A stretch of DNA of 25,884 nt from Lama guanicoe. Lineage: Eukaryota. The translations under genes and the position numbers were made by a program. The notes under the pieces were generated by a model. It saw nothing but the letters and a program-made list of their open reading frames with translations. It was not told the origin of the DNA and did not search any database. Below, in pieces: positions 1-23,549 of this stretch. How positions within the stretch are numbered: the first letter of the stretch is position 1; every line of letters starts with the position of its first letter. Where the stretch lies: NCBI GenBank assembly GCA_013239625.1, contig MU053684.1, positions 114,611 to 140,494 of the forward strand, written 5' to 3'.

Positions 1-340
1 GCAGAGGCACCAACAACATCAACTATATAATCAGATTTCTTCAAAGCAGCAGAGTGGAAATGATACCTTAGATGCTAGTGCAAGTTTGACCTACCAAAAC
101 TGTTTGTGCCATTTTTATAGGTCAATAATTTTTCTGTTGACAATCGTTGAAGAACATGTACCATTAATTTGCCCAAAAGAAAATTCAAACAGTAAACATA
201 TGGAGAAATATTAAGCACCAACAGTCACTAAATGAATTCTAATTTTAACTACTATAGTGTATTTCTTATATGTATTACATGATCATAAACAAAAATCAAG
301 ATGTTATAGTGAAAAAAAAGTTTTTCAGGTGTGTTTCTAG

Positions 341-364
341 ATTTAATTATCTTTAGATTTAAAG
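341..364 (+). CDS. Candidate 24-nt phase-1 micro-exon (xLIIFRFK) of the TSBP1-like gene; alternative in-frame acceptor at 328 gives 36 nt
   Basis: ttctag|ATTTAATTATCTTTAGATTTAAAG|gtaagt: consensus donor, length divisible by 3, no stop in phase 1. The polypyrimidine tract is weak. Confidence 0.35.
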
Positions 365-607
365 GTAAGTAACAAGTCTTCAAAATAATTCATTATTTGT
401 GTGTTTTAGCCCATAGTTTCAATTTGGGCATTACTAAGGATATGAAACAAATGAAAAGAACATGATTTCTAGAAATATATTTACAAGTAAGTAAATATCA
501 TGGCTAAAATCGAGAAGAGAGTCCAAATGCCATAGAAGAATTGGTGTTTAATATGATAACATATGACTTTATAACTAGAACTAACAATTTTTTTTTCTCT
601 GAATCAG

Positions 608-625
608 GATTTGCTGAACCAATTG
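608..625 (+). CDS. 18-nt phase-1 micro-exon (G-FAEPI) of the TSBP1-like gene
   Basis: Branch-like ctaac (581-585), T-rich tract, gaatcag|GATTTGCTGAACCAATTG|gtaagt; frame-preserving and the same phase as the terminal exon. Confidence 0.7.
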
Positions 626-696
626 GTAAGTTTTTTTTCTTTTCCTCACTATTATGTCTTTCAGTTTAAATAACACTCTGAAAGTTATTCCTACAG

Positions 697-844
697 TTTT
701 TTATTGAATATAATTAACATATAACTTTTATTAGTTTCAAGTGTACAACATAATTCAATATTCATTCATATTGTGAAATGATCATCACAGTAAGTCTAGT
801 TAACATCCATCACCATACATAGTTACATTTTTTTCTTGTGTTGA
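697..844 (-). mobile_element. L1 3' end fragment (L1MA9-like, Laurasiatherian)
   Basis: Poly-T followed by ttagtttcaagtgtacaacataattc...aaatgatcatcacagtaagtctagttaacatccatcacc, the reverse complement of a typical L1 3' UTR terminus. Confidence 0.75.
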
Positions 845-854
845 AAAAGAAAAA

Positions 855-1326
855 AGAAGAAGTGGTACATACGTACAATGAAATATTACTCAGCAACAAA
901 GAAAGAATGAAATTTTGCCATTTGCAACAACTTGGATGGACCTAGAAAGTATTATTCTTAGTGAAATAAGTCAGGCAGAGAAAGATAAATACTCTATATT
1001 ATCACTCATACGAGGAATCTAAAAAATAAAACAATTGAATGAATATAACAAAATATAAACAGGCTCACCAATACAGAGAACAAACTATAGGTTACCAGTG
1101 GGGAGAGGGAAGTGGGGAGGAGTGAGATAGGAATATGGAATTAAGAGACACAAACTATTATGTATAAAATAAATAAGCTACAAGGACATACTGTATGGCA
1201 CAGGGAAATATAGCCATTATTTTGCAATAATTTTAAATGGAGTATAATCTATAAAAATATTGAATCACTATGTTGTACACCTGAAATCAATATAATATTA
1301 TAAATCAACTATAGTTTAATAAAAAA
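855..1326 (+). mobile_element. 5'-truncated L1 (ORF2 C-terminus and 3' UTR)
   Basis: gtggtacatacgtacaatgaaatattactcagc...tttgcaacaacttggatggacctagaa...agtgaaataagtcaggcagagaaaga; ends aatcaactatagtttaataaaaaa. Confidence 0.85.
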
Positions 1327-1464
1327 GATGTTGTGGTATAAAGGTAAAAAGAAGACCTAACAAGTAAGTTACTCTTCAGTCCTGAGAGTGTGAATTTTAT
1401 GTCTCATATAGGACCATCCATCCCACTAGAAATCAAATTAACTGATGCAAAAGTCTTTGTGCTT

Positions 1465-1626
1465 TATTTTTTTAATATTTTTTTAATTTATTTTATTTTA
1501 TTTTTTGAGGGGGGAGGTCATTAAGCTTACTTATTTATTTATTTTTAGAGGAGGTACTGGGGATTGAACCCAAGACCTCGTGCATGCTAAGCACACGCTC
1601 TACCAATTGAACTATACCCTCTCCCC
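1465..1626 (-). mobile_element. Vic-1-type camelid tRNA-derived SINE
   Basis: Reverse complement reads GGGGAGAGGGTATAGTTCAATTGGTAGAGCGTGTGCTTAGCATGCACGAGGTCTTGGGTTCAATCCCCAGTACCTCC (A and B boxes) plus an A-rich tail; flanking TSD tttgtgctt at 1456-1464 and 1630-1638. Confidence 0.88.
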
Positions 1627-1709
1627 ATGTTTGTGCTTCTTGAATATTATTTTATAAGACCCTCACCAGGAATATTTACAAGGGAAATGTGTTGTATACT
1701 TAATAGCTA

Positions 1710-1763
<54 letters not shown>
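1710..1763. repeat. (AAT)18 microsatellite
   Basis: Perfect AAT run of 54 bp, directly upstream of a splice acceptor. Confidence 0.97.
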
Positions 1764-1779
1764 TGTGTTTTTATTTTAG

Positions 1780-1806
1780 CAAAAACCTCAACCTCACCAC
1801 TTCCTA
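1780..1806 (+). CDS. 27-nt phase-1 micro-exon (A-KTSTSPLP) of the TSBP1-like gene
   Basis: tgtgtttttattttag|CAAAAACCTCAACCTCACCACTTCCTA|gtaagt; frame-preserving, Ser/Thr/Pro-rich, C-rich against the intronic background. Confidence 0.7.
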
Positions 1807-2399
1807 GTAAGTACAATATTTTATAATTCTACTGATGTAGTCTATTGCTGCATGCACAGATCTGTTATTAAGCTCTATGGTTGTTATTTTCCAGTGGAGC
1901 AAAAGTCAAGAATTTTACTCTTTCTGACAATTATCTTGAAATTAAACCCAAATGATTTATAGAAAGAGTAAATACAGAAGTACACTATCATTTAGTCAAG
2001 TCAACTGACTTACCTGCAACAAAGAAGAATGTTCTGACTAGGGATAAAAATGAGTTGGAGCTGAGAAGAAAAAATAGAGAAATATATGGAAGAAGAATAA
2101 TTTTTTAAATACCTTGATAAATCTTCTAAATCTGACACACAGGATCCAAAAATTTAGCTGAGTGTTTGAACAAGTAAAGAGAATAAAAGAATGGACTATA
2201 TCCATGTTAATTCTAAGATATCAAAATTAATAGAATAGAATCAATTAGGATTAATATTACAAATAGGATGAAAAGAGAAATCCTGAAGAAAAAAAGATAA
2301 ATTAGATGGGGAAATGGAAACAGCAAAGCGCAAAAGAATCAAACTGACTATATTGTATCTTAATGAATAGAAGAAGCACATAGAGTTACCATTGACCCA

Positions 2400-2560
2400 A
2401 TTCATACTAACAAAAAGACTTGTACTAATAAGAAAAAGTATTTTTTAAAAGTAATGGATCACATGAGCCTAGATTTTGTGGTATCTGAGGATAAACAGCT
2501 AAAGATTGTCAAATATTCTAGACTAAATTTTAAGAAAGCCAACTTCAAAAGTTCCAATTA
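2400..2560 (+). mobile_element. Ancient CR1/L3 LINE remnant (endonuclease C-terminal region)
   Basis: 2457-2555 translates DHMSLDFVVSEDKQLKIVKYSRLNFKKANFKSS, resembling the CR1 ORF2 SDH..hEF...LDFRKADF motif. Confidence 0.55.
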
Positions 2561-2996
2561 TAAACCTAGAAGACTGCCATAGCTTGAGAAATTATGGTTC
2601 TCTTCAGTAAAAAAGAAACATTTAAAAACACTGGAGGAAGCTTAGACCATTTGGCCAAAAGTATGTCAGATTTATTGAAATGGACATCATGTATATGAAA
2701 AAATTAGGCAATATTGGTTCCAAGTCTGGCAGGGAAAAAGAAACATTCACAAAGTCATGTAAATGGAATGTTTTCCAGTGCCATCTTCCTCTGATCACCA
2801 TGTGGGGAAGCAGAAGAAATTCCTATTTCTATCCTGCCCAAAAGTCTTGTCTCAAATGATGCTATTCAAACTAGACCATGACCAGACCACTTCACCTCTT
2901 GCCTCTGCTGAAAATTCCAAATTTCAAGGTTTCATTTCTCAGAGGTTCTTCACTTCTTCATTCAATACCTTCTTGCAGAGGTATTATAAAGTTTTT

Positions 2997-4430
2997 AACA
3001 GTTTCTGATAGGTCTCCAATTCTAGTAGAGAGTGAAAGGAGAGTATGGAGCATGTTCCCCTCCATTTCCTCTTCCTGAAGTACTATATGGAATGGGACTG
3101 TGGCAGCACAGACACAGAGATGGAGAGGGTGGGGTTTCCCTCTTGATTAAGGATAGTATTAAGACCATAGTCCACATTTCTGACCATGGCATACTAAGAT
3201 ATATGTATTTATATTTATATTTCCATTTACATTTATATTTTAGCAAGATCTAGTAGTAACTACACACATATTATTTGCATTTTCCAGTTCCTGCAGGAAA
3301 ATACCATTTCTAATATTGAAAAAAAAGGATGTTTCTACATAACCCTTTCTCTCCTCATTCACCATCCAGTTAAGTTATTGATAATGTTTTAAAGGACATG
3401 ATTGTCAGGAAGAATGAATGGAGGAAAGAGAAGAGGAAAGATGGATAATGGAAACTAGAGGAAGAGGGTACTTAATGGGGTGACCCCAAAACAATCTCCA
3501 AAGAGTTTTACCTCTAGACTGAAGGGGAAGAACACACTGAAAGGGTTTCACTCCACATTATTTTAGTTGGCTGACACTATCGAAGTTATGGAGACACCGT
3601 GCAGAGCCTTTCTAAAGTCCCTATCACACACAGTACAGTACAACCTAGTGACTTGGAAGGGTTGGTTCTCCCTAAAAGTCATACATCTAAAGCTTACAGT
3701 AAACGCTTTGAATAAACTAGGTTGTTCAACAAAAAATAACCTGTTATTTTGTTTTCCTTCCACGGAACCTTCAGTACCCACTGGTAAGCTCTTTAATCCT
3801 CAGTTCCAGCATCTATAAAAACATCTTTCTCAATATTTTCTGCACTCACTAATTTCACTTCTAGATATTTACCCAGTAACCCCTTAACTTCTTGATTAAG
3901 TCTGAAAACAGAGATTTCACCTACCTAAGACAAAAAAAGTAAGCAAGTAATCTTCTAGAACTGCTTCTAGTAAGTTGTAGGCAGAAACTAAAAACTAAAC
4001 TACCTGAGTTTAATGAGGAGCAGGGGAGAGAATTAGAAAGTAAAGAAGATGCATAAAATTCAGTGCAGCAAATTTTTCAAAAGGAGACATTTGAACAGTT
4101 TCTGATAGGTTTCCATTTCTTATAGGGGCTGAGAGAAAAAAAGATGATAAAAGCCACTTATGTCTTCTGCCTCCTCCTAAAACTCTACCTTGAGCAAGGG
4201 TATTCCTCCACAGACACAGACACAGAGGGCTGGAGCTTCTTTCCTAAGAAGTACATCTTTATAACCATATTCAAGAGCCTGTGACCAAGTCACCTTTGTG
4301 TTTTTATTTTACAAAAATCTGTAGTAAAATCATACCCATGAACTCACATTATTTTCCCCCTAAACTACAATTTTGTTGTTGTTCTTTCATAGTTTCTAGA
4401 GGGAACCATCATTACTAACACTAAAGAAAC
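2997..4430 (+). repeat. Diverged intronic duplication (~2997-3330 versus ~4094-4430)
   Basis: Colinear anchors: aacagtttctgataggt (2997, 4094), cacagacacaga (3107, 4209), tgacca (3181, 4282); offsets 1097-1102. Confidence 0.7.
3766..3783 (+). CDS. 18-nt micro-exon (PSVPT) with a non-canonical GG acceptor; possible 9-nt form 3775-3783
   Basis: Strong pyrimidine tract ttttgttttccttcca, then cacgg instead of cacag, AACCTTCAGTACCCACTG and donor gtaagc. Confidence 0.4.
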
Positions 4431-5049
4431 CTGATAGTATAATTTCCACACTTTGTTTAGTATCAAGTTGTTAATGGTGTTATAGGAAAAACATATTCCC
4501 TTAATTAACTGAAATAACAAAGAGAGGAAAATTCTCCTGGTAAATACTTAAATGCTTATCAACAACAGGAAACCAGCAAGATATATAATTTTTTCTAGGT
4601 ACAGTGAACAATTCTAAGTGTTTATCTTAAAGAAAGATAATGTGGTTGTTGAGGCCAGTTAATGTTGTACTTTCTATGTCATCCAGAAGTCTAGTTCTCT
4701 AGACAATGTCTACATTAGAATTAGGCATGCAGACATGTCTAATTCTGTCAGCAAGAGGTGGTTGTTGAAAAGTCTGAAGCACAGTGATGTCAACAATGTG
4801 GTGGAATAGGAGGTCACCAGCTTGCTTCCCCAACACAAACTAACTGGTAGACATTCATGGACAAATGTGCCTTTTGTGGAGATTTGGGATCCAGGTAGTA
4901 GGTAAACCCCAAGACTGAGGATAGCTGCTTTGAAAAGGCAGGCCCACTTCCTGGTGGCAATCTCACCAAACATGGTTCTATCTGCCAGACCAAAAGTAGC
5001 CCCAACCCTCTATGGACTCAGCCCTACCCTGCTTGGCCATTGTCCAGCA

Positions 5050-5200
5050 ATTTATGATTAGGTAACGAGTATGCCTTTAACATATTTAACAGATCTGAGG
5101 CTCAGAGAAGTGATTTTCTACAGGTTGCCTAATTGCTAAGTGATAAACCTGAATTTCAAACCAGTTCTTTTGACTTCAGATTTTGTTCTCTTTTTTCAAT
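5050..5200 (-). mobile_element. MIR SINE
   Basis: acagatctgaggctcagagaagtg...ctaagtgataaacctgaatttcaaaccagttcttttgacttcaga matches the MIR core. Confidence 0.75.
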
Positions 5201-5284
5201 GCTAGCCTGCTTTCTAGGAAAATGCAAGTCCAAAGTTTGGAAGTTTTGGGAAGTCCTTAATATTAATCAATATCTTCCATTATA

Positions 5285-5927
5285 GTGGAGGTGAGGGAGA
5301 GTAAGAGGTACAAACTTCCAGTTACAAAATAAATGAGTCACATGTATGAAATGTAGTGTGGGGCATATAGTCACTGATAATGTAATATCTTTGTATGGTA
5401 ACAGAGGTAACTAGACTTATTATGGTCATCATTTGTAACACACAGAAATATCAAATCACTATGCTGTGTACCAGGAACTAACATAGTGTCATAGGTCAAT
5501 TATACTTCAAAAACATACTTATAGAAAAAGAGATCAAATTTGTGGTTACCAGACAAGAAGGTAAGGGGAGGAGGAATTGTATGAAAGTAGTCAAAATGCA
5601 CAAAGTTCCAGTTATAAGATAAATAAGTACTAGGGATGTAATGTACAACATGGTAAATACAATTAACACTGTTGTACGTTATACATGAAAATTGTTAAGA
5701 AAGTATATCTAAGAGTTCTTATCACAAGGAGAATTTTTTTCTTTTTCCTTTATTTTATATCTATATGAAATGATAGATGTTCACTAAACTTATAGTGGTA
5801 GTCATTTCATGATGTAAATAAGTCAAATCATTATGCTGTATACCTTAAACTTATACAGTGCTGTATATCAATTATATCTTAACAAAACTGGAAGAAAAAA
5901 TAATTTTTAAAAATCTAACTTTAAAAA
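5285..5927 (+). mobile_element. 5'-truncated L1 3' UTR (Laurasiatherian type with internally repeated UTR) with a 20-bp TSD
   Basis: aaacttccagttacaaaataaatgag and aagttccagttataagataaataag modules; TSD aatcaatatc(t/c)tccattata at 5265-5284 and 5928-5947. Confidence 0.88.
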
Positions 5928-6079
5928 AATCAATATCCTCCATTATAAAGATGTTTCATATCATTTTTTAAATGATTATTAGGTTATTTATATGCATTAA
6001 AAAATAATTTTTTTACTTTGTAAACTAACATCCTACAGTGCTCTCTTGAGCAACAAGATTATTTTCTAAGAATGATATA

Positions 6080-6880
6080 AAACACAGAAACTGTAATTTA
6101 AAAGTTTGATTAATTAGACTACATCTCTTTTTTATCTTCTATATTAAAGAAATTACCAAAAACAAAGTTGAAAAGCAAATAGAAATTTGGAAAACAAAAC
6201 CACTTATACCAGAAAAATATTTTCTCTCTTGAATATATAATGATTTCTGGGGGGAAAATAAATAAATAAAGCAAAAAATAAATGCTAAAGAAACAAAACT
6301 ACTAGTTAATAAAAAACACAGATAAAGAGGAGCTATTTTTTTTAATCTATCAGTTTGTGAAAGATCAAAGATATTTACAGAGAATAATGTTTTTAGGGTT
6401 TGGCCACATTTCTATTCCTATGCCCCATTTCTTTTTGGGTTTTTTTGGGGGGGTGCATAATTAGGTTTGTTTTTTTTTTAATGGAAGTACTAGGGATTGA
6501 ACCCATGACCTCATGCATGTTACACAGGCACTCTACTGCTGAGCTACATCCTCCCCTCTTTATGCCCTATTGATATTAAGGTAACTTGGCTTTAATGTTC
6601 AAGAGAGCATATGGCAATATGTTTCAAAATACAAAAAGTGCACATACTTTGCCTAAGAATTTATACCTCTAGAAATGTTTTCTATGAAAAAAAGAGCAGC
6701 TTTTCAAAGGAATATACATTAAGTGGTTTATTGCAGGATTATTTATAATAATTAAAACTTGAAAATAATACTTATTAACAGGAGGTTGTTTTAAAATTGA
6801 GATTATATAAATAGAATATCATGTAAACACTTAAATGATCATATCAATCAATATTATTGACACAGAACCATTAAATATTT
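6080..6880 (+). mobile_element. Old degenerate L1 (L1ME-like) remnant interrupted by a SINE
   Basis: Degenerate L1 ORF2-end motifs, e.g. aaacaaagttgaaaagcaaatagaaatttggaaaa, tatggcaatatgtttcaaaat, gtttattgcaggattatttataata. Confidence 0.55.
6430..6557 (-). mobile_element. Vic-1-type SINE
   Basis: ggaagtactagggattgaacccatgacctcatgcatgttacacaggcactctactgctgagctacatcctcccc; TSD tatgccc(c/t)att on both sides. Confidence 0.85.
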
Positions 6881-7012
6881 TTTTAATTAAAAGATCACTG
6901 TAGTAATTACTTTTTACAGTAAAATTTCCCTTGTGCTACAAATAGTTAATCTCATGTATTTGTCACATACTATTTTAGCAATTTTAAAAGACATCGATGT
7001 ACTTTTTCTCCA

Positions 7013-7180
7013 TTTGTCCTCACATAACTCTGTGAGGTGAATATGGCCAGTATTATTAACTTCATTATACAAATAAAAAAGGTAAGATACAAAAAGATTA
7101 AGGGTCTTTGGGAAAACCACATAATAAATAATAGAACTCAAATATTTTTTAACTCCTCATCCAATGATCTCTCCACTATC
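7013..7180 (-). mobile_element. MIR SINE (degenerate)
   Basis: tcctcacataactctgtgaggtg...attattaacttcattatacaaataaaaaaggtaagatacaaaaagattaag. Confidence 0.65.
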
Positions 7181-8450
7181 CTGAATTCAGTCCAACAAGC
7201 CTTCTCAAAACATGAAACAAGACTATTTCACAATGTCCACATTCCAGGATGGAAACCCTGTTTAGAATGTTCTTCACAGTTATCCTCTCCTATCTCTCTA
7301 CCCTCAACATCACCTGTCCAGTTTCACAAATTATAAATTACTTTATTCTTCCCACAACTTTCAAGCAGCTGTGTGTTCCCACTGCACAAATGTTAACCTT
7401 CCTTTGCTAATAAAATACAGAAAGGTTGGAAATGGGTATATGGGGGTACCCAGTACCCAAACACAAAACACCCACCTAGAATTCAGCCAAAGGGAAGAGC
7501 CAGTTAGAGGGTATGTCATCCACAGGTACAGAACCAACTGAATAAATCTGAGTGCTGAGTATCTGGAACTCTTATCAAGGGACACCACTATGAAGCACAG
7601 CATGAGGCCTCATTAAATTCTTGACCCACTCCCAATTTGGGGAGACCCTTAACTCTCAAAACTTGCTTAAATTATATTTTCTATCCCATTTCAGTAACTA
7701 CTGGTCCTATTTCCTCTATATTAAAATAAGGAAAGGGTATTGAAACATGACAGAAGCAAACACTCAAGATCAATAAAAAGATAAATTAATAACAAAATGT
7801 AACTAAAAGAATCTGTATTTCAGTAAAATAATCATGCTTTACTTTTCCTATTTATAAAAATATTAATTTTAATTTGCTATGTATCACACAGCAGTAAATA
7901 TTCCTATTTTTAGCATAGGCCCTACAAGAACCAGATGTTTTTTGACCTTAAGTCATGCTATCATCTCTAAATCACTTTAAATGCAGACTCCATGAAAACC
8001 TGTGAGATAACTAAGGAAAGTTCCAGCCTCACTGTCTCTCAAATTACTAGTTTAGCAATTCTTATCACTTAAAGGGAGATGAAGCTTCCTTAAGAAATCA
8101 TGAACATTATATAATAATATAATTTTCTCAGAAAAAGTTCTCCTTTTCAGTTTATATCTCTAATCATTTTAATCATACACTCTAGCCATATTCTACTAAG
8201 CAATTACCAATTCCTTTGTGTTGTATTTTTCCCTTTTCTCAATTCAATTTCTGAAAAGAGTCTGCATTTCAATGACCTCTTATCAAATCCTTTGTGTGTA
8301 TACAGCTTCACAAATTTTATATTATTGGGAAGACAAATTTATTGATTCAAGCTTAATGCAAAGTAAAAGTGTCTGATAACAAAAAATGCAAGCAGATAAA
8401 AATTACTTAAGATATGAATTATGCACTTATATGCTCTATTATATTTTCAG

Positions 8451-9373
8451 GTAATTTGAGAGAAGGTTCAAAAACAGAGGTAAAAAGTGGCACTAGAGAA
8501 ACAAGGAATGCTATCTCCAAACAGGATATTCATTTAAGAATTCAGGCAGTCCCACCACAAAATAGCCAAAGTGGTCCTAAGCACCAACATGAAAGAGAAG
8601 TAGGTGGCCCTGAGGAGACCTATGAAAAGGAACAAAAACAGAAAACTGGAGTGAAAGTTGAAGAGCTTCCTGGGAAAACTCAGAGTAAAGAAGAGAAGAG
8701 AGAGAAAGACAATGAAAGGAAACATACTAGGGAGGACATGGACAAAGAAAAGAAAATAGATAAGGACCAACCAAATAAAGGGGATGGTGAAAAAGATAAA
8801 GGTGAAAAAGGGGAACAAAGGGTGAACATGAAAAAGAAGGGAGATGAAGACAAGGAGGAGGACCAGGACAAGAAGGGAGATGAAGACAAAAATGAGCACA
8901 AGGACAAGAAGGAAGACGAGGACAAGGACATGAAGGGAGATGAGGACAAGACACAGGACAAGGTCATGAAGGGAAATGAGGACAAGACAGAGGACAAGGT
9001 CATGAAGGGAGACGAGAACATAAAAGAGGAGAAAGATAAGATGGAAGATGAGGACAAGACAGAGGACAACAGCATGAAGGGAAATGAGGACAAGACAGAG
9101 GACAAGGACAAGAAGGAAGACGAGAACATGAAAGAGGACAAGGATAAGACGGAAGATGAGGACAAGACAGAGGACAAGGGCATGAAGGGAGATGAGGACA
9201 AAAAGACAGAGACAGAGGACAAGAAGGGAGTCAAGGACAAAAAGGAGAGCAAGAATATCAAAGGTGATTCTAAGAATAAAAGGGACAAAACAAAAATAAG
9301 TAAAGAGGAGAAGGGTATAAACCAAAAAGAAGATTCCAGGAAGAAAAGGGACAGTAAAAAAAGGTCACGTTGA
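8451..9373 (+). CDS. Terminal coding exon of a Lys/Glu/Asp-rich repeat protein; TSBP1 (C6orf10)-like, orthology uncertain
   Basis: Acceptor attatattttcag|GT at 8450/8451 in phase 1 matching the upstream micro-exons; 923 nt open to TGA; AATAAA cluster 29 nt after the stop. The architecture and KQDI / ERE..G / EK..VKV motifs recall TSBP1 from memory. The ORF-track ATG at 8414 is intronic. Confidence 0.8.
8834..9292 (+). repeat. Coding 36-bp minisatellite (~13 units, consensus MKGDEDKTEDKD)
   Basis: Units start at 8834, 8870, 8906 (24 bp), 8930, 8966, 9002, 9038, 9074, 9110, 9146, 9182 (39 bp), 9221 and 9257; all length variants are multiples of 3. Confidence 0.9.
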
Positions 9374-9401
9374 AGAAAAATAGCACCAAATTTTATAAAC
9401 T

Positions 9402-9422
9402 AATAAAATAAAATTGAATAAA
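9402..9422 (+). terminator. Polyadenylation signal cluster
   Basis: AATAAA at 9402, 9407 and 9417; a further AATAAA at 9667 and ATTAAA at 9679 could be a distal site. Confidence 0.65.
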
Positions 9423-9914
9423 TTCACTCCAACACATCAGCTTCAAAACTAGCTCCCAGTCTTCTAAAGTATCAATTAAAATGACAGACTCCTTACATTT
9501 TCTTTAGCCACAAAGTTTCTACTCCTTTGCTTGCAATCTGGCAAAAGACCCTTCAGAAATTTTTTTCTTTTTAGGTCTCTTAGTCTCAAACTTCAGCTTC
9601 CAAGTGTAAATTTTTCAAAATGTATGTGCATGATGCATCACTGTCAGGAAATTACAATTTTTCTGAAATAAAACTCTGATTAAAGAAAAGTAGAACTCTT
9701 TTTCTCAATGAAGTATGGAATTTCCCTGCCTAATCAAATAGCTATTTACTTAGTCCCTACTAAATGCAACATCCATAGAGGAATACAAAAATATCTTCAT
9801 GAAGAAGATAAATATAAATGAAAAGACTAAAATAATGTTAAAAATATGAATATCCAAAAAATGATTCTGAGCAGTAAATACAATAGGAAAAATTCAGAAG
9901 AGAAAAACCTCTTT

Positions 9915-10058
9915 GTTTTGTTTGTTTGTTTGTTTTTGGTTTTTTGCAGGGGGAGGTAATTAGGCTTATCTATTTATTTTAAAAGGAAGTACTGGGGATT
10001 GAACCCAGGACCTTGTGCATGCTAAGCACATGCCCCACCACTGAGCTATACCCCCCCC
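9915..10058 (-). mobile_element. Vic-1-type SINE
   Basis: ggaagtactggggattgaacccaggaccttgtgcatgctaagcacatgccccaccactgagctataccccccc; degenerate TSD agaa(a/g)aa(c/t)ctcttt. Confidence 0.88.
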
Positions 10059-10365
10059 TCTGAGAAGAATCTCTTTGGACAGAGGTGATACATGAAGGAC
10101 TTTAACAGGCAGTAGAATTTGAGCTGGGCATCAGTAAAAGACAGGAGTTTTATATTGTTTGAGACTGTGGATTAGTAATTCCTTAACAGAGTATAAACTT
10201 TTTGAAGGAAAATCTGTTTCCTACCATTACCTTTATCCTCAGTGCCTGTTACAATCTTTACTAAACTGAATTGACTGGGAAAGGAAATGAGGGAACAAAA
10301 AAGAAAAAGGTTAGACATGAAAAAATGTATTCTAAATGCAGGGAGAAGAGCAGAGAATTTGTGTG

Positions 10366-10670
10366 CAGCAAAGTTCCCCAACGTTTAGTTCCCCAGACCA
10401 CCAATAATGCATAGAATGATTTCAGGTGGTACACAGGTAAATATTTTAATATAAAACTTAATATTTATTATTACATGAATTAGAAAAAAAGGTGTATACA
10501 GTCCATCAAGCCCATGATTTTGAAGAAATTATAGATTAGGATGAGACTAAGTAAAATGATGAGTCAATTTAAAGAAAAATACTGAATAAAAAATAGTACA
10601 GTTTGTATGTACTTAGATACGGCAACAATTATGACAAGTGGTGGGATATGAATGAAATTGGCAAACACTG
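10366..10670. mobile_element. Old hAT-Charlie MITE (MER112/MER113-like)
   Basis: Degenerate terminal inverted repeats cagcaaagttccccaac ... ttggcaaacactg; internal atgatttcaggtggtacacag. Confidence 0.5.
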
Positions 10671-10699
10671 AGGGTAATAGAAGAAAATAAGGTTGAAAT

Positions 10700-11080
10700 T
10701 AAAAACCAGGGTTCTGGAGGGACTTGGACTTTTATTTCATTTATTTGATAGGCAACAGAAATATAAGCTGGGATGTCTTTCAGGAAGAGTAATTTGGTGG
10801 TTTAGACATGAGAAAGGATGAGAGATCAGTAGAAGACTATTGTAGTGATACAGCCATAAAAAGACAAGAGACTAAATTAATTTGGAGGTGATGAGAATAA
10901 AATGAAAAAAACAGATGTGAAAATTATCTTGAAAGAGAAATGAACTTACTTTGACAACTAACTGAATGTATATGACATGGAGAACCTCAAAGATGATCCC
11001 AAGGTTTTGACAAAGCTGGGTAACTGATAAGATGAAGGCACCAATCATAGAAGGAGGGAAATTCAGTGGGAAAAAGGTAA
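10700..11080 (-). mobile_element. L2 LINE remnant
   Basis: ttggacttttatt, gaagactattgtagtgatacag, tcaaagatgatcccaaggttttg...ctgggtaactg are typical antisense L2 phrases. Confidence 0.7.
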
Positions 11081-11269
11081 GTTATTTGTTAACTGTTGGG
11101 ACATAATAAATAATGGCTTCACACTATTGCACTATAGTAATTATGATACTATATATAATTGAGAGACTTTTTATAATAACCATTATAACATAACACCAAA
11201 GTAGAGTTCATTTTTTTAATTATATGAGATCCAAGCTTATATTTCCAACTGCATACTTTACTCCTCCAT

Positions 11270-11530
11270 TTTGATTGATTCACTGACCAAACATGTATCA
11301 AGTGCCTGTTACATGCCAGGCATTGCCCTGAGTGCTGAAAATGAACTGGTAGGCACAATTAAATACAGCCCATGCTCTCATGGAACTTATTCCAAAGGCA
11401 AAGACATTAATCCAATAATAAACATGTAAAACTGCAATTATAACAACAATTATTCTTAAAATGACCTGTAATAGGAAGATTTCTACCTAGTCAACCAGGT
11501 CAGGGAAGGCTTAATATTAAGAAAGTACTG
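11270..11530 (-). mobile_element. L2 3' end
   Basis: attcactgaccaaacatgtatcaagtgcctgttacatgccaggcattgccctgagtgctg...catgctctcatggaactta. Confidence 0.78.
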
Positions 11531-11534
11531 CTTG

Positions 11535-11890
11535 ACAGAGAAAGACATATAAGATATCACTATATGTGGAATCTAAAATATGATACAAATGAACTTATTT
11601 ACAAAACAGAAACAGACTCACGGATATAGAAAACAAACTTACAGTTACCGGTGTAAAGGAGAGAGAGGGATAAATTAAGAGTTTGTGATAAACATATATA
11701 AACGACTAAATATAAATAGATAAACAATAAGGTCCTAGTATATAGCACAGGGAACTATATTCAATACCTTATAATGGCCTGTGGTGAAAAAGAATATGAA
11801 AAGGAATATATAGAGATGTATAAATGAATCACTACACTGTGCACTAGAATTTAACACATTGTAAATCAACTCTACTTCAATTAAAAAAAA
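11535..11890 (+). mobile_element. Cetartiodactyl L1 3' UTR fragment
   Basis: atgtggaatctaaaatatgatacaaatgaacttatttacaaaacagaaacagactcac...tatagcacagggaactatattcaat...ttgtaaatcaactctacttcaattaaaaaaaa. Confidence 0.88.
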
Positions 11891-12133
11891 TTTAAGAGAC
11901 TTAAAAAAGGGGTTAAATTCTCAAAAGAGTAATTCCTAAATCAAAGGTTATCTGGTACAGCAGCTATGGGGACTGGGGGTAGAACCCCTACTTTGCAATG
12001 ACAAGGCAGTGTTTTCCTCCCAACTAGAGAATGTGGGGCAAGAAAGATGATGGATAAAAGGGAAAGGAGATGGGGATATTCTGAATCTCTGTATGAAATC
12101 CTTCTGAGTGGTACATCTAAGAAACTGACCAGA

Positions 12134-12222
12134 CTATACACCAAAAACTAGCACAACATTGTAAATCAACTATATTTCCATTTAAAATTTTTAATTTTTA
12201 GTGTAGAAAACCTAAAAAAAAA
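12134..12222 (+). mobile_element. Very short L1 3' tip with a 12-bp TSD
   Basis: cacaacattgtaaatcaactatat and an A-tail, flanked by aaactgaccaga at 12122-12133 and 12223-12234. Confidence 0.75.
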
Positions 12223-12439
12223 AAACTGACCAGAAATGACACCTTAAGGGATCTGAGAACTGAGCATTGATCTGGAATACTACCAGGTTTCAAACTGGCC
12301 TCTGAATAAAACACAACTGGGGCAGGCCAGAAAAGCATTGCAAAGGCCTTAAAAACCATTAATATTTGACCACAGCCCACAAAAGTAGGTCAGTATGTGT
12401 ATTCCAAACTTAAGCAAGTTGACTGCCTGCTAAAACGAA

Positions 12440-15345
12440 GAGTTAAATAGAAGCAAGAGTCTCATAGTATAATATCCAAAATGTCCAACATATAATCAAA
12501 AAATCAGTTGTCATTACCAAGACCCTCAAAAATCACACCTCAGTAAGAAAATGCAAACAATGGCAACACCAAGATGGCACAGGTGTTAGAATTATCTCAC
12601 CAGGACTTTGCAGCAGCTATCATAAAAATGTTCCAACAAGCAATTGTGATCACCTTTGTAACAAATTTAAAAATAGAACATCTCAGTAAAGAAACAGAAA
12701 ATGTAAGGAAGAAGCAAATAGGAATTTTATAATTAAAAAATAAAATAACCAAAATGAAAAATTACTGGAGGGGGTTACCAATAATAGAACTGAGGTCACA
12801 GAAGAAAGAATCTGCAAACCTAAGGATAAATCAATTGAAATTACCCAATCCAAACTGAGAAAAAAAAATTAACAGATCACCACAGACACCTGTGGGAAAT
12901 AACAAACTAACTAACATTCTTGTCATCAGAATCTCAAAAAAAGAGGACAAAGAGTGCTAGAAAAAAATTGAAGAAATTACTGAAGGCTTTCCAAATTTAG
13001 TGAAAGACATAAACATGCAATTCAAGAAACTAAGTCAACCTTTCTTTAATACAATAAACTCTAAGAAATCCATGCTCAGTCATATCATACTCAAATTTAT
13101 GAACACTAAAGACAAAGAAAAAATACTGAAAACATTCAGAGAAAAAAAAAAGCATTACCTACAGAACAACTACTTGAATGACAGTGGACTTCCTATCAAA
13201 AACCATGAAGCTGGAAGAAAGTGGCATAACAGTTTTCAAGTGCTGAAAGACAAGAACTGTCAACTCAGAAGTTTATATCCAGAGAAAATGTCCCAAAGAA
13301 CTATAAAAACATTTCTAGAACTATTAAGGGAGTTTAGCAAGTCTACAAAATACAAATCAATCATATTTCTATAAACTAGCAAAAAATAGGAAACCAAAAT
13401 TAAAGCACAATACCATTTACAACCACTGCAAAGAAAACTAACACTTAGGTATAAATCAAACAAAATATATATAGAATCTGAATGCTAAAAACTACAAAAT
13501 GCTGATGAAAGATATAAAGATAGATCTAGTTAGAAATACATGCAGTGTTAGTTAACTGGAAGACTCAACAAAGTAAGGATATCATGTCTCCCCAAATTGA
13601 TCTATGGTTTAGCATAATTTGTATCAAACGCTTTCTTTTGTATATACAGACAAGCTGGTCCTAAAATTTACATGGAACAGCAAAGGAACAAGAATAACTA
13701 AAACAGTATTGAAAAATCATAATAAAATAGGTGGAATCACACAAACCAATGTTAAGATTTACGATATAACTACAGTGTCAAGACACTATAGTACCAGAAG
13801 AGGAATAGAACCTGTATCAACGGAACATGATAGCACAGAAAAAGAACCCAACTCATACTCCCAGCTGATTTTTCACAAAGGTGCAAAAGCAATTCAAAGG
13901 CAATTTTGGTATCCTTTGAAAATGGCATTTTTAATAAATGATGTGGCTGAAACAACTGGACTTCCACCAAACAAGAATAAAATTAATCTCAACCTCAATA
14001 TCACACTTTATTTTAAAAAAAATAAGCCAAAGTTGATCATAAATTTAAATCTAAAAACTGTAAAAATTATAAATGAAAATATAGGAGAAAAATATTGTGA
14101 TTAGATGTAACATGAAAAACACAATCTATAAAACAAAAATTAGATAAATTGGACTCTATCAAAATTTAAAACTTTGATTTTCAAAATTCCCTGTCAAGAG
14201 GATGAAAATACAAGCAATAGGCTGGGAGAAAACATCTGCAAAACACATATTCAACAAATGGCTTGTCTTCGGAATATGTCAAGAACTCTCTAAATTCAAC
14301 GTTAAGAAAACAAACAATCCCTTTAGAAAATGGGCAAAAGACCTGAACTGACACTTCACCAAAGAGGAGACAGATGAAAAGATTTAACAACATCAGACAT
14401 TAAAGACATGCAAATTTAAATATATGAGGTGGCACTAAAGATCTACCAGCTGGCTAAAATTTAAAAGTACTGATAACAACAGCAAGTGTTAAAACGATTA
14501 GAGCAACTTACTCTTACAGATTGCTAGGAGAATGTAAAATGATACAGCAAGTCTGGAAAACAGTTTGTCAGTTTTTTACAAAGTGAAACATACAGTGACC
14601 ATACAATCTAGCTACCATCATACTCCTGGATATTTATCCTGGAGAAATAAAACATGACCACACAGAAAAACTACAGGAACATTCATAGTAGCTTCGTTTG
14701 TAATAGCCTCAAGCTGGAAACAATCCAAATGTCCTTCAGTGGGCAAATAGATAACAAAATGCGGCATATCCATACAATGAAATACCATAAGCCATCAAAA
14801 AGGAACAAATTACTGATCCACACAATAACTTGGATGGACCTCCAGGGTGATTCGCTGTTTGAACCTCAAGTGATTACATATGTATGATTCTATTTATAAC
14901 ACTCTTAAAATGACATACTTATAGTGATGGAGAACAAGTCAGTGGTTGTCTAGGGTTAAGGCTGGGGGAAGGTCTAACTAAAAACATAGCATGAGGGAGA
15001 TTCTTTGTGGCGATAAAACTATTTTGTATTCTGACAGCAGTAGCAATTTCATAAACCTACATATGAGATAAAACTTCATAGTACTATAGACACCAAAAAA
15101 AGTATATAAAAACTGATGAGATCTGAATAAGGTCTGTAGTTTACTTAATAACACTACCTATGTCAGTTTCCTGGTTTTGAAAAATGTATGATCATGTAAA
15201 ATGGGGAAAGATGGGTGAAAGATACTTTGTGTCGGCGGAAGCTCTGGGGGAGGGGGTGGGTTGTTTGCTGGCTTCTTTGTTTTGGTTACACTATTTTTGC
15301 CACCACTTGTAAGTCTTAAATTAATTCAAAATAAAAAGGTTTATA
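12440..15345 (+). mobile_element. Old internally deleted L1 (L1MC/L1MD-like): ORF1 remnant, ORF2 remnant and 3' UTR
   Basis: ORF-track peptides show ORF1 motifs (HIILKFMNTKDKEKILK, LYPEK) and ORF2 motifs (DKLVLKFTWNSKGTRITKTVLK, YSQLIFHKGAKAIQ); 3' end tgtaagtcttaaattaattcaaaataaaaagg. The 5' limit may extend to ~11950. Confidence 0.85.
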
Positions 15346-15429
15346 GAAAGAAGGGAGGGAGGAAGAGTCCTACAGCTGCTGTTCTGGGAAAAAGTACAAG
15401 TCAAAAAGAACTGCATTTGTTCAGGTTTA

Positions 15430-15790
15430 GTCAGACTGCGAGCCACCACTGTAAGAGGTGGAAGCGGTGGAGAAGGAACTTACCGCTGTGGAAGAGGCGA
15501 GCGAAGTCTCTCTTCTGAAGCTGACCCTTCAGAGAATTCCTCTCAAAGCCAAACCTCCTTGCCGTGGTGGGTCTAACGGGGAAGATCCAGAAGGCACTCT
15601 CATAGCCTCGAGGTGGAGACCCGGAGCAGAGCAGGCGCGCGCCCGGCACAGGACCCGAGTCTCAGGCTGAGGCAGCTCGGGGAAGCGCTGCCTGCGGCTG
15701 GCGCTCCGGGTGCTACGCGCCCCTCGCCGGGCTCCCGCCCACCGCGCGCCGACCTGGCGTCTTCCCCGCCCCACCTCCACCGCGAACCTT
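15430..15790. promoter_or_regulatory. Small CpG island / GC-box promoter candidate
   Basis: Dense CpG in an otherwise CpG-depleted window; GC boxes cccgccc (~15734) and ccccgcccc (~15764). Confidence 0.7.
15484..15780 (-). ncRNA. Candidate first exon of an antisense non-coding transcript (5' end approximate)
   Basis: Minus-strand GCG|GTAAGT donor (acttac at 15478-15483) at the island edge; the minus-strand ATG at 15603 opens only 24 codons. Confidence 0.35.
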
Positions 15791-16860
15791 ATTCCTCTGT
15801 CTTTGACTTTCACCCCCTTCCTCACGACACTTTTCCCAGCTTCCCCCATTTCCCTCACCGCCTTGTCTCCTCAGTTTCCCTCATTATCTTCTCCCCTCAA
15901 AGTGTCCCGTCACAGACGTTTCTCCTCACACTTTTCTCTCAGGTCCCTGCTCCCCTCACAGGTTCCTGCTCCCCTCACAGGTTCCTCCTCACCACTTTCT
16001 ATCTTCACCTTTTCCTCTCAGTTTATCCTTTCACCTCTGTCTCCCCTGACAGTTTCTCCCTCACCACCTCTCTCCTCACAGAGTCCCTCTCACAGCCTTC
16101 TCCCCGCACATTTTCCCCCTCACTCTCTTCTCTCAGTTTCTGCCTCACGGCCAATTACCCCCTCTCCGCCTTCTACCCTCACACGTTTTCCCTCGGTGCC
16201 TTCTGTCCTCACAACTTTCCTTCAAGCCTCTTTTCCCCACAGTTTCCTATTTCTCTCTCTGTTTCTACCGCGCTGTGTTCTCCCCTCACAGTTTCTCACA
16301 GCTTCCTGTCAGTTTCCGCTCACAGCCTTCTCTCCCACCAAATTCCTGCTCAATGCCTTCTCCCTCAGTTTCCTCCTCCCTGCCTTCCCTCCTAGTTTCC
16401 CTGTATCACCTTATTTCCTCACACTTTCCGCTTTAGACCCTCTTCCCTCACAATGTCCCTCACCACCTTCTGTCTTCAGTTTTCCCCTCACTGCCTTGTC
16501 CTCGCAGTCTCCCTATCACTGTCTTTTCTCCTCACTGTTTCCTTCCCAATGCGTTCTCCCTCAGTTTCCTTTCACAGCCTTCTCCCCTCGGTTTTCCCCT
16601 CATCTTCACTCACAACAATTTGACCTTACAACCTCCTCTCTGCAATATCCCCCTCCCTGCTTTCTCCTCAGTGTCCCCCTCACTGCCTTTTCCCCTTTAG
16701 GTTTCCTCTCCCTGCTTTCTCTCCTTACACTTTCAAGCCCTCTCATTCCTCACAGTTTCTCCCTCACTGCCTTTTCGCCTCCCAGCTTCCCCTTACCACT
16801 TTATTTTCTCATATTTTCCCCTCACAACCCTCCTTCTTCACTGTTTCCCCTCATCCTCTG
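15790..16860. repeat. Degenerate pyrimidine-rich tandem repeat (core ttctcccctcacag / cctcag)
   Basis: Recurrent cctcac/cctcag separated by C/T tracts; exact 19-bp tandem cctgctcccctcacaggtt at 15946 and 15965. Confidence 0.85.
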
Positions 16861-16879
16861 TCTAATGCACAGACACCTA

Positions 16880-17360
16880 CACAGAGACTCAAGGAAAATA
16901 AAGAATCAGGCAAAGATGTTCCAAAGGTGCAAAATAAATCTTTAGAAAGTGGCCCTAATAAAACGAAGCTATGTAATTTACCTGACAGAGAATTCAAAAT
17001 CACTGATGTATATTTTCCTTAACAGCCATCCTGCTGTTTGTAATAAAGGCAGGACTTAAATCATATATGGGCATTATTTTGGAAATATTCTGCAAACCCT
17101 TACACAGCGCTCCCTTTGAATATAATATGTGTTTAATAAATAGCCTCCATTCACCCAAACACAAACAAAACAGGTGACTAAAAGCTCACCGAGGTCAAGA
17201 GAACAATGCATGAGTAAAGTGAGAATTTCAACCTAGAGGTAGAAATATTTCAAAATACTAAACTGAACTAACAAGCTGGAGAACACAATAATCAAACTGG
17301 AAACTTCATTAGAAGGGTTCAACAGACTAGATCAAGCAGAAAAAAACATCAACAGAGTGA
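16880..17360 (+). mobile_element. L1 ORF1 5' fragment interrupted by an insert at ~17008-17172
   Basis: atttacctgacagagaattcaaaat...ctcaccgaggtcaagagaacaatgcatgag...gagaatttcaac...gggttcaacagactagatcaagcagaa. Confidence 0.75.
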
Positions 17361-17363
17361 AAC

Positions 17364-17389
17364 CTCTGCCTGAGCTATATCCTCCACCC
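17364..17389 (-). mobile_element. Vic-1 head fragment at a deletion junction
   Basis: ctctgcctgagctatatcctccaccc resembles the A-box end of the other SINE copies. Confidence 0.4.
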
Positions 17390-17479
17390 ATGGCTTAGGC
17401 CCATTAATACAGCTTGACAGCCAGCATTGCACAAGTTTTGACTCATTAATTGATGTAGCCTAAGCTGCAAAATAAGTGC

Positions 17480-17740
17480 ACTCCTTTTCCTGAACTCCAT
17501 GTCTCAGCACCACATCCCCTTGCAGAGTAACTGGGAAGTATTCCAGATTCCGTTTTCAGGGCCACGTGCATTCCACCAGTACCGAGGCCTGTTAGTTCTG
17601 TCTCCTATCCACAAGCCCTCCATTCTACCCTTGCCTGAGAACAGGATTCCTAGACTTTTCATCTGAATGACTTAGTCTCCTGTGGGTCTGCCTATATCTT
17701 CATTCTCCACACAGTAGAGTAACCTAAAAACTGAAACTCT
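17480..17740 (+). mobile_element. L2 remnant
   Basis: tcatctgaatgacttagtctcctgtgggtctgcct...cattctccacacagtagagtaacctaaaaactgaaa. Confidence 0.5.
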
Positions 17741-17749
17741 TTTTCTATA

Positions 17750-19290
17750 AGTTTGTTCGTTTTTGTTTGTTTGTTTTTGAAGTCATAATTGAGCTGCAAC
17801 ACTATGTTAGTTCCTGGTGCACAACATAGTGATTGGATACGTCTACACATTTCAAAATGATCACCACAATGAGTCTAGTTACCACCTGTCACCAAACAAA
17901 AATATTACGTTATTTTTGACTATATTCTCCACACTGTATATTTCATACCTATCACTCATTTATTTTGTAACTGAAAGTTAGTACCTCTTCATCTCTCTCA
18001 TCTGTTTATCTCCTCCCCTCCTCCACTCTAGCTATCATCTATTTGTCCTCTGTAACTCGTGCTGTGTTTCTGTTTTATGTTCATTCATGTTTTTTAGGAT
18101 CCCACATATAAGTGAAATCATTCGGTAGTATGTGTCTTTCTCTGTCTGACTTAGCATTACACCCTCTAGGTCTATCCATGTTGTCATAAATACATAAATT
18201 CTCCTTTACAGCTAAGTAATATTCCATTTTATATATTATATATATATCAAATCTTCTTTATCAATTTGTCTATCAGTGAACACTTAGGTTGCTTCCATAT
18301 CTTGCCTATGGTAAATAATGCTGCAGTGAACATACAGGTGCATGTATGTTTTTGAATTAGTGTTTTTGTTTTCTTTGGATACATACCCAGGATTGGAAGT
18401 GCTAGATCATATGGAAGTTTTATTTTGAATTTTTCAAGGAAATTTCATATCATTTTCTATAATAGATGCACCAATTTACATTCCCAACAACAGTGTACAG
18501 GGGTTCATTTTTTCCATATCCTTGCTTATATTCATTATTTGTTATACTTTTGATAATAGCCATTCTACAGATGTGAGGTGATATCTCATTGTGGTTTTCC
18601 TTTGCATTTCCCTCATGATTAGTGATTTTGAGTATCTTTTCATGTGTTTCTGGGCCATCTTTTGTCTTCTTTGGGAAAATACCTATTAAAGTCTTCTGCC
18701 CAATATTTAGTTGGGCTGTTTATTTTTTTGATGTTAGGTTGTATGACTTTGTATATTTGAAGATTAACTCCTTATCAGGTATATAATTTGCAATTATCTT
18801 CTCTCTTTCAGTAAGTGGTCTTCTCATTTTGTTGATGGCTTTTTTCACTGTACAACAGCTTTTTAGTTTCATATACTCCCGTTTGTTATTTCTGCTTTTG
18901 TTTTCCTTGCCTGAGGAGACATATCAAATAAAAATTACCAAGATCAGGGTCAAAGAGCATACTGCCTATCTTTTCTTCTAGGAGTTTTATGGTTTGGGGT
19001 ATTAAATTTAAGTCCTTAATCCACTTTGAGCTTAGTTTTTAATATGGTGTGAGAAAGTAGTCCAGTTTGATTCTTTTGCATGTAGCTGTCCAGTTTTCCC
19101 AACACCATGTACTGAAGAGGCTGTCTTTTCCCATTGTATATTTTGCCTCCCTTGTTGTAGATTAGTTGACCATATAAGTTTCGGTTCATTTCTGGGCTCT
19201 CTTTTCCATTCCATTGATCTATAAGTCTGTTTTTGTGCCAGTACTATACTGTTTTGATTACTGAAGCTTTTGGAGTATAGATTAGAGAGT
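17750..19290 (-). mobile_element. 5'-truncated L1 (ORF2 C-terminus and 3' UTR; UTR related to 5285-5510)
   Basis: cactatgttagttcctggtgcacaacatagtgatt; gtgaggtgatatctcattgtggtttt; frameshifted ORF2 seen as 19032..19451. Confidence 0.9.
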
Positions 19291-19329
19291 GACATCCAGA
19301 TTTGTTCTATGTTCTCAAGATTGTAGCTG

Positions 19330-19505
19330 TTCGGGATGAGGATGATTCCCAGGTTTCTGGCATAGACACCTGGGTTGCTAGTAAGGACATGAATTAAGAG
19401 AGAACTGAGGGGAAAAAAGTAGTATTCTGCAATCAGGAGAGGGAGTAACATGTTATGTTTTGAACAACCTAGGTGTTAATTACTTGTGGTATGAGAAAGT
19501 GATTT
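19330..19505 (-). mobile_element. L2 remnant, split by the younger L1 and resuming at ~22370-22660
   Basis: aggatgattcccaggtttctggc...gttttgaaca; continuation aagtcacaagtatgtgggtgagagttga. Confidence 0.55.
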
Positions 19506-19507
19506 TA

Positions 19508-22261: not shown

Positions 22262-22809
22262 TGAGAAGTGATGTTAAATTTTAAAATGTAATTTGGAAAT
22301 TATTTACCAATTAACTTACCTCCTCTTAATGGAAATCGAAAACAAAATCTTGTATTTCTACACACATGATGCCTCAGGTGTCTAGAAATTAAATGAAAAG
22401 GGAGTTCTGTACTTCGAGAAAAGGATTGAATAGGACATGTAGCTGCGGAAGTCACAAGTATGTGGGTGAGAGTTGACTTCTAGAGTATGGATGGGAAATA
22501 ATATCTAGGATGAAAAGAGAAGAGAGTCTAAGACTAAATCCTAGGAAACAACATTTTAAAAGCCAGTACAAGGAGAGTCTGCAAGAAAACGAAGTGACTG
22601 AGACAGATGAATGGAAGCGTTTGGCATTACAGAGCCAAAAAGGAGAAAATGAGAAGAAGGTTATGATCAGGAAAGTTCAATTCCTCAGCTACACGAGATA
22701 TTTCACTCATGTTTGGCTGGTTATATGTCTGCATATTTATTTATATGCTACCTTATTCTAAATAACAATTTTGAACAACTCTTAAAAAATGCTATCAAAA
22801 CAGCAATGA

Positions 22810-22916
22810 AGGGGTGGGGGTAATAGCTCTGTAGTAGAATGCATCCTTAACATGCACAAGGTCCTGGGTTCAATCCCAAGTACCTCCATCCAAATAAATA
22901 AGTAAGTTAAAATAAA
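22810..22916 (+). mobile_element. Vic-1-type SINE
   Basis: ggggtgggggtaatagctctgtagtagaatgcatccttaacatgcacaaggtcctgggttcaatcccaagtacctcc plus an aaataaataa tail. Confidence 0.88.
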
Positions 22917-23079
22917 CTGAAGAGATGAAATCAAAGAGAATGAAAATATAAAATAAAATCAAGACAGAATATACATCCAAAATGTATGATTATTACATAA
23001 TATTACATATTAGAAATATGTAGGCCACAAATTGACCTGAACATCTAGCAACAAAAACGAGGAAACATAAGCAGTTATA

Positions 23080-23360: not shown

Positions 23361-23549
23361 GTAAAAAATAAATCTGTTTCTCCATAGTACTGTCACTGGT
23401 ATGTAGCCCTATCTTACACAAAGAGTGTGTTTCCTGGGAAGGCAAATATTATGTAAGGTCAAAGCGACCCTTGAAAATCCTTTATCTTGCTCCTCAAGTA
23501 CAGCTCCACGGCTGGGATGCACAGCCCCATGCATAAAGTAGACATATAA

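What the first reader, a model, noticed from the sequence alone, without database searches (positions are those of the whole stretch)
341..9422. Micro-exon gene hidden from the ORF track: TSBP1-like, possibly a diverged paralog
Seen: 24-, 18-, 27- and 18-nt exon candidates, each with a gtaag donor, each phase 1 and stop-free, joining in frame to the terminal exon as xLIIFRFK-GFAEPI-AKTSTSPLP-KPSVPT-GNLREGSKTEVK... Any subset can be skipped without a frameshift. Knowledge: TSBP1/C6orf10 has many tiny exons and a large charged last exon. Inference: as I recall, the human last exon begins differently and has a different repeat, so this may be a sister gene or a very fast-evolving ortholog that annotation would miss or mis-model.
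Basis: partly seen in the sequence, partly recalled or inferred. Interest (0 to 1): 0.7.

Follow-up and report, generated by a model that had tools for sequence, protein, structure and literature searches.

The report
Second last exon of TSBP1
This is the far 3' end of the testis gene TSBP1 in a camel-like genome: a set of tiny optional exons and a second, unrelated last exon that gives the sperm membrane protein a highly charged tail, already present in automated gene models of cats, dogs and buffalo.

Summary
The window holds an alternative 3' arm of TSBP1 (C6orf10), not a paralog. The terminal exon (8451-9373, 'exon B') is 63-67% identical over its first 126 residues to RefSeq-named TSBP1 isoforms of cat, jaguar, tiger, dog and buffalo. 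In cat and jaguar, isoforms with identical N-terminal 224-250 residues end either in the human-type last exon (A) or in B. An unnamed camel-like model (P0082) carries A followed by this exon at 99%. Micro-exons 608-625 and 1780-1806 are supported: they give 7-9 identical residues across junctions of named isoforms. 3766-3783 is a homologous cassette but its acceptor reads GG, not AG. 341-364 has good splice signals but no homolog. All 24 primate proteins fetched end in A. Likely role: a single N-terminal membrane anchor with a disordered cytoplasmic tail, whose end is switched between a mostly basic (A) and an acidic, 60% charged (B) form. No junction reads or direct synteny were obtained. Known gene and isoform class; the two-tail layout was not found in print.

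The parts
341..364 (+). Candidate 24-nt micro-exon; unsupported (possibly lineage-specific or spurious). Competing AG acceptors would give 36 nt (from 329) or 8 nt (from 357).
   Evidence: Consensus sites; no match to homolog cassettes (168 of 200 null peptides score as high); only 3 identical residues across its junction with 608-625
608..625 (+). Conserved 18-nt phase-1 cassette exon of the TSBP1 distal arm (FAEPI block)
   Evidence: 0 of 200 null; block present in 31 of 36 B-type forms; 8 identical residues across a direct join to exon B in cat isoforms
1780..1806 (+). 27-nt phase-1 cassette exon, Pro/Thr/Ser-rich; relatives appear to have a 7-residue version
   Evidence: 9 identical residues across the 608-625/1780-1806 junction with 4 buffalo isoforms and 7 with 7 dog proteins; weak on its own (11 of 200 null)
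3766..3783 (+). Homologous cassette (PVPT block) whose acceptor reads GG instead of AG in this sequence; probably skipped, or used as the 9-nt form 3775-3783
   Evidence: acceptor; 0 of 200 null; 10 identical residues across its junction to exon B with P0001; block in 10 of 36 B-type forms
8451..9373 (+). Coding part of alternative last exon B of TSBP1 (306 codons plus stop): near-neutral charged head, acidic repeat, basic end
   Evidence: 99% to P0082 residues 425-550 and 63-67% to named TSBP1 isoforms over the first 126 residues; profile search, 33 hits; charge
8834..9246 (+). Degenerate 18/36/108-nt tandem repeat coding the D/E/K-rich block (72% charged, net -21)
9402..9422 (+). Cluster of three AATAAA poly(A) signals; another at 9667
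   Evidence: site usage not tested

Best explanation
The window is the distal, alternative 3' arm of the camelid TSBP1 gene. After the shared 5' exons, transcripts either end in the proximal human-type last exon A (upstream of the window), or skip it and splice through a second array of phase-1 cassette micro-exons into last exon B (8451-9373), with poly(A) signals near 9402-9422. Shown by comparison: gene identity, A/B alternation in cat and jaguar models, order A then cassettes then B, cassette skipping in models of relatives. Inferred (about 0.55): the protein is a type III membrane protein (N-terminal helix, tail in the cytoplasm) of spermatocytes, spermatids and sperm. Its tail is unstructured; the cassettes tune a Pro/Thr/Ser-rich, phosphorylatable linker; and the last-exon choice swaps a mostly basic Q/S/K-repeat end for a longer acidic polyampholyte end, changing spacing and electrostatic partner binding at the membrane. 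The stated confidence is for the gene-structure claim.
For: The only hit of the exon-B head among 168-536 aa proteins, P0001, has a TSBP1 N-terminal half: 131 hits, the named ones nearly all TSBP1/C6orf10. Of the 120 listed, 84 end in A, 29 in B, 1 has both and 6 neither. P0082, sheep P0121 and sheep-hybrid P0146 place A before B. N-terminal hydrophobic stretch (KD19 about 3), no K/R before it and 4 K/R just after it in 4 of 5 proteins; exon B has none. AlphaFold2 on cat B-type P0033: one helix (2-41), 665 of 717 residues below pLDDT 50. Exon B net charge -8 to -32 in 5 of 5; exon A net +4 to +24 in 7 of 8. Five RNA runs of two studies hold 51-64% of the sampled words of 8451-9700, four of them labelled reproductive system. 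Mouse Tsbp1 has 25-103 spermatogenic isoforms (PMC10953240); a TSBP1 phosphopeptide was found in boar sperm (PMC8322956).
Against: No genome was available, so linkage to exon A, BTNL2 and NOTCH4 rests on protein models. The named isoforms are automated predictions. One cassette has lost its AG and one has no homolog. The dog exon-A tail is acidic (net -7), so the basic-versus-acidic contrast is not universal. The AlphaFold alignment had only 10 rows, so low confidence is not proof of disorder. No function is known for TSBP1 in the papers read.
Confidence: 0.9

Rival explanations
1. A separate TSBP1 paralog (sister gene) lying next to TSBP1.
For: Exon B is unrelated to the human last exon; no genome was at hand to count 5' halves.
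Against: A-type and B-type isoforms of cat and jaguar are identical over 224-250 N-terminal residues. No second, diverged TSBP1 5' half appeared among the 120 listed hits. P0082 has one 5' half followed by A then B.
Confidence: 0.03
2. The distal arm is TSBP1-derived but decaying in this lineage: the cassettes are vestigial and B-type protein is rare or absent.
For: GG acceptor at 3764-3765; several cassettes seen in buffalo and dog between the FAEPI block and exon B were not found in 1807-8450; 11 codons fewer than P0082 at the start of the repeat.
Against: The 306-codon frame is intact, the indel is in frame, head identity to four other lineages is at least as high as for exon A, two cassettes keep consensus sites, and RNA runs hold the exon.
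Confidence: 0.05
3. Exon B is a stand-alone or different gene's exon that gene predictors fuse to TSBP1 by read-through.
For: Some public ORFs call it alone from an upstream Met (P0122-P0124); P0082 is plainly an over-fused model.
Against: Those upstream Met segments differ between species and overlap the acceptor tract. 36 full-length forms from felids, dog, buffalo and P0001 join TSBP1 to B in frame through conserved phase-1 cassettes.
Confidence: 0.02

Closest known systems
TSBP1 / C6orf10 B-type RefSeq isoforms (cat X4-X33, jaguar X13-X26, tiger, dog X106-X114, buffalo X1-X4)
   Same: Same last exon (63-67% over the head), same FAEPI, AK..P and PVPT cassettes in the same order, same phase.
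   Different: In this genome the PVPT cassette lacks its AG, the AK..P cassette is 27 nt, several buffalo and dog cassettes were not found, and the repeat is shorter than in cat and dog.
Human/primate TSBP1 (exon A form)
   Same: Same gene family; many small in-frame exons and a large charged last exon.
   Different: All 24 primate-labelled proteins among the 120 listed end in exon A; A and B are not detectably homologous (hhalign probability 0.3%).
Mouse BC051142 (Tsbp1)
   Same: Extreme isoform diversity in spermatogenesis, function unknown (PMC10953240, section 8 and passages read).
   Different: The text read does not describe a second last exon; no mouse protein was among those fetched.
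Type III single-pass adaptors (LIME1, SCIMP and similar)
   Same: Works-like analogy only: N-terminal anchor and unstructured cytoplasmic tail; ESM Atlas feature leads at 0.78-0.82.
   Different: Scores are below 0.9, a level shuffled proteins often reach; no homology and no signalling motifs were shown.

Membership tests
TSBP1 (C6orf10) gene | Best protein matches are named TSBP1/C6orf10 | tested here: met
   the named hits of the exon-B head are TSBP1/C6orf10 isoforms, plus two sheep hypothetical proteins that contain TSBP1 sequence
TSBP1 (C6orf10) gene | Joined to the TSBP1 N-terminal membrane helix and conserved core | tested here: met
   Indirect: the 5' half is outside the window, but B-type relatives and camel-like P0082 carry it
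TSBP1 (C6orf10) gene | Small frame-preserving alternatively used exons | tested here: met
   (sequence and models; no reads)
TSBP1 (C6orf10) gene | Location in the MHC between BTNL2 and NOTCH4 | not testable with these tools
   No genome held; no second gene recognised in the window. Human adjacency seen in passages of PMC8193847
TSBP1 (C6orf10) gene | Testis-restricted spliced expression | tested here: inconclusive
Separate TSBP1 paralog | Own, diverged 5' half distinct from TSBP1 | tested here: not met
   A and B forms share identical N-termini in cat and jaguar; not testable directly in this genome
Exon B as a tandem duplicate of exon A | Detectable homology between the two last exons | tested here: not met
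   hhalign probability 0.3%, E 0.2, score 12.88 against 7.58-12.86 for 30 column shuffles and 9.77 reversed
SRRM3/4-type neural microexons | At most 27 nt and frame-preserving | tested here: met
SRRM3/4-type neural microexons | UGC motif just upstream of the acceptor (motif recalled, from no call) | tested here: not met
   No TGC in the 30 nt upstream of 341, 608, 1780 or 3766

The most novel reading that the evidence does not exclude
TSBP1 of carnivores, artiodactyls and probably horses carries a second cassette array and a second, unrelated last exon that primates lack, either gained in Laurasiatheria or lost in the primate line. A stage-regulated last-exon switch would flip the cytoplasmic tail of an MHC-encoded sperm membrane protein from basic to acidic, and cassettes are born and lost by single splice-site changes, one such loss being visible at 3764-3765. 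A decayed copy of exon B may lie between human TSBP1 and NOTCH4, near infertility- and autoimmunity-associated SNPs.
Probability: 0.4. Interest if true: 0.5.

Novelty: already known. Interest (0 to 1): 0.27.

Why it matters
Mainly an annotation correction: camel models either omit this arm or fuse both last exons, so a major isoform class of a testis gene in the MHC is misrepresented. More widely, it shows that TSBP1, treated in human studies as one basic protein of unknown function, makes two unrelated tails in many livestock and carnivore species. That gives a concrete test (isoform-specific expression, localisation, exon-B deletion) and matters for sperm proteomics, where B-type peptides are missed if the database has only the A form.

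Tried and rejected
Pfam: 0 families for exon B; one sub-threshold LED-repeat hit on P0001 (19.5 bits, cut-off 59), rejected as low complexity. ESM Atlas: nothing for exon B; leads below 0.9 for P0033 not used as evidence. Metagenome contig scan with the exon-B alignment: 423 pattern matches, none confirmed. Weak blastp hits of the exon-B head to primate proteins (31-36%, unmasked) were rejected as compositional: none scored with the exon-B HMM at E 10. Exon A profile against six frames of the window: nothing. Further cassettes in 1-8450: 65 relaxed AG..GT candidates were scored; 7987-8001 resembled a dog block but 46 of 200 null peptides scored as high; 3959-3969 is 11 nt and out of frame. Runs with small word shares (X15-X18) are not used. 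No read-level junction data were obtained. Earlier scan notes: three look-ups, nothing. One script stopped part-way and one failed; both were completed.
Full report
Observation. Three of the four micro-exon candidates are as described: 341-364, 608-625 and 1780-1806 have YAG acceptors and GTAAGT donors and are stop-free in phase 1. The fourth, 3766-3783, has a good donor but its acceptor reads cacgg; only a 9-nt form (3775-3783) has an AG. The large exon opens at 8451 and runs 306 codons to a stop at 9373, with 17 and 32 stops in the other plus-strand frames and AATAAA at 9402, 9407, 9417 and 9667. A simple splice rule finds 5 candidates on the plus strand of 1-8450, against a mean of 0.15 (maximum 3) in 300 shuffles, 1 on the minus strand, and 1 per strand in 9700-25550. 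The rule was set after seeing the candidates.

Identity. Pfam and the ESM Atlas gave nothing for the large exon. Its first 130 residues found one protein, P0001 (66%). The first 200 residues of P0001 found 131 proteins, the named ones almost all TSBP1/C6orf10 (120 listed). Of those 120, 84 end in the human-type last exon (A), 29 in the window-type exon (B), 1 has both and 6 neither (by motif). The exon-B head is 63-67% identical to cat, jaguar, tiger, dog and buffalo isoforms and 99% (125 of 126) to P0082. P0082 is an unnamed model that shares a 318-residue identical block with Camelus bactrianus-labelled P0077, so the window is taken to be camel-like (inference). A full HMMER scan of 1.8 billion representatives gave 7 hits, all of this exon. 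A profile search of 224-2000 aa proteins gave 33 hits among 7999 scored candidates; the named ones are from felids, dog, buffalo and sheep.

Not a paralog. Cat P0007 (A) and P0033 (B) are identical for 224 N-terminal residues, jaguar P0014 and P0015 for 250, under one gene name and contig length each. P0082 and two sheep models place A before B, the sheep ones with cassette sequence between. A and B are not detectably homologous (hhalign probability 0.3%; score 12.88 against up to 12.86 in 30 shuffles), and the exon-A profile finds nothing in the window. Exon B is not the faster one: camel versus cat, dog, pig and bovid gives 82-89% for the first 55 residues, 59-61% for the A head and 65-68% for the B head. 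The human last exon looks different because it is a different exon. All 24 primate-labelled proteins listed end in A; of the Glires proteins listed, chinchilla ends in A and guinea pig, hamster and rabbit matched neither motif; a donkey model has cassettes but stops before B. Absence in primates rests on protein models and limited searches, not on genomes.

The cassettes. Against 7 cassette segments of relatives (777 residues), 608-625 and 3766-3783 scored above all 200 random intronic peptides, 1780-1806 was reached by 11, and 341-364 by 168. Exact matches across junctions were 9 residues for 608-625 to 1780-1806 (4 buffalo isoforms; 7 residues in 7 dog proteins), 8 for 608-625 to exon B (cat), and 10 for 3766-3783 to exon B (P0001). 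They were only 3 for 341-364 to 608-625 and for 1780-1806 to 3766-3783. Among 36 B-type full forms the three blocks occur in 31, 9 and 10, and 8 different blocks directly precede exon B, which fits free skipping in those models. So two cassettes are well supported, one is homologous but has lost its AG here, and one is unsupported. Several buffalo and dog cassettes were not found in 1807-8450.

Expression. 23 runs hold words of 8451-9700; 8 are on record as RNA, from two studies, 5 of them with 51-64% of the words and 4 labelled reproductive system. No genome was held, so synteny with BTNL2 and NOTCH4 is untested.

Mechanism. Shown: TSBP1 proteins have one strongly hydrophobic N-terminal stretch with no K/R before it and 4 K/R just after it in 4 of 5 tested; exon B has none. 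AlphaFold2 on cat B-type P0033 gives a single helix (2-41) and pLDDT below 50 for 665 of 717 residues, from only 10 alignment rows. Exon B is about 60% charged with net -8 here and -12 to -32 in 4 relatives (head +2, repeat -21, last 40 residues +11); exon A is 34-48% charged with net +4 to +24 in 7 of 8, dog being -7. Inferred from the positive-inside rule (general knowledge): a type III anchor with a cytoplasmic, unstructured tail. My best reading (about 0.55) is a germ-cell membrane tether or adaptor whose linker length and phosphosites are tuned by cassettes and whose end is swapped by alternative last-exon choice.

Literature. PMC10953240 (section 8, passages, and a search of the 2 supplement files held, which showed primer rows only): mouse BC051142 has 25 to 103 isoforms, starting in leptotene/zygotene and rising; function unknown. 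Its isoform table, which I did not see, could show whether mouse has a B-like end. PMC8322956 (one table passage): TSBP1 phosphopeptide Thr317/Ser323 in boar sperm, isoform not determined. PMC7074441 (passages): intronic SNP rs498422 linked to non-obstructive azoospermia; function unknown. PMC8193847 (passages): human TSBP1 near BTNL2 and NOTCH4. Eight searches (listings only for all other papers) showed no paper describing a second TSBP1 last exon or a knockout; the library lacks most subscription papers.

Verdict. It is the camelid copy of an isoform class already in automated annotation of several mammals and mis-modelled in camel. Modest interest: the two-tail layout and its apparent absence in primates were not found in print and are directly testable.

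Noticed in passing
window 15450-15800: CpG island (GC 0.73, CpG observed/expected 0.94 in 15601-15800 against 0.08 in 1-15000) with a minus-strand donor GCG|gtaagt at 15483: possibly the first exon of an antisense transcript facing TSBP1. A human TSBP1-AS1 is named in papers; that it starts at the equivalent place is recalled and untested.
   Followed up: partly
window 15800-16850: About 1 kb degenerate pyrimidine-rich minisatellite (79% pyrimidine, units 19-30 nt) next to the island; it produces long stop-free frames such as 15671-16945 that are probably not genes.
   Followed up: partly
window 8830-8840: Exon B here lacks 11 codons present in P0082 at the start of the repeat: an in-frame repeat-number difference or an assembly collapse.
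   Followed up: partly
P0078, P0146: A camel-like model fuses a SPRY/B30.2 segment (PF00622) in front of TSBP1, and a sheep model starts with heptad repeats; both suggest a butyrophilin-like gene just upstream that predictors run into TSBP1.
   Followed up: no
window 20569-20830 and 20969-21192: Two near-perfect local duplications (132 and 109 nt, 97-99%) inside a minus-strand LINE-1-like element (about 19600-22280): recent duplication or assembly artefact.
   Followed up: no
window 12300-15200: Fragmented reading frames resembling an old plus-strand LINE-1 ORF1/ORF2 (12961-13374, 13613-14104); family recalled, not tested.
   Followed up: no
window 1710-1763: A perfect (AAT)18 microsatellite ends 16 nt upstream of the 1780 acceptor, over the expected branch-point region; length variation could alter inclusion of that cassette.
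   Followed up: no
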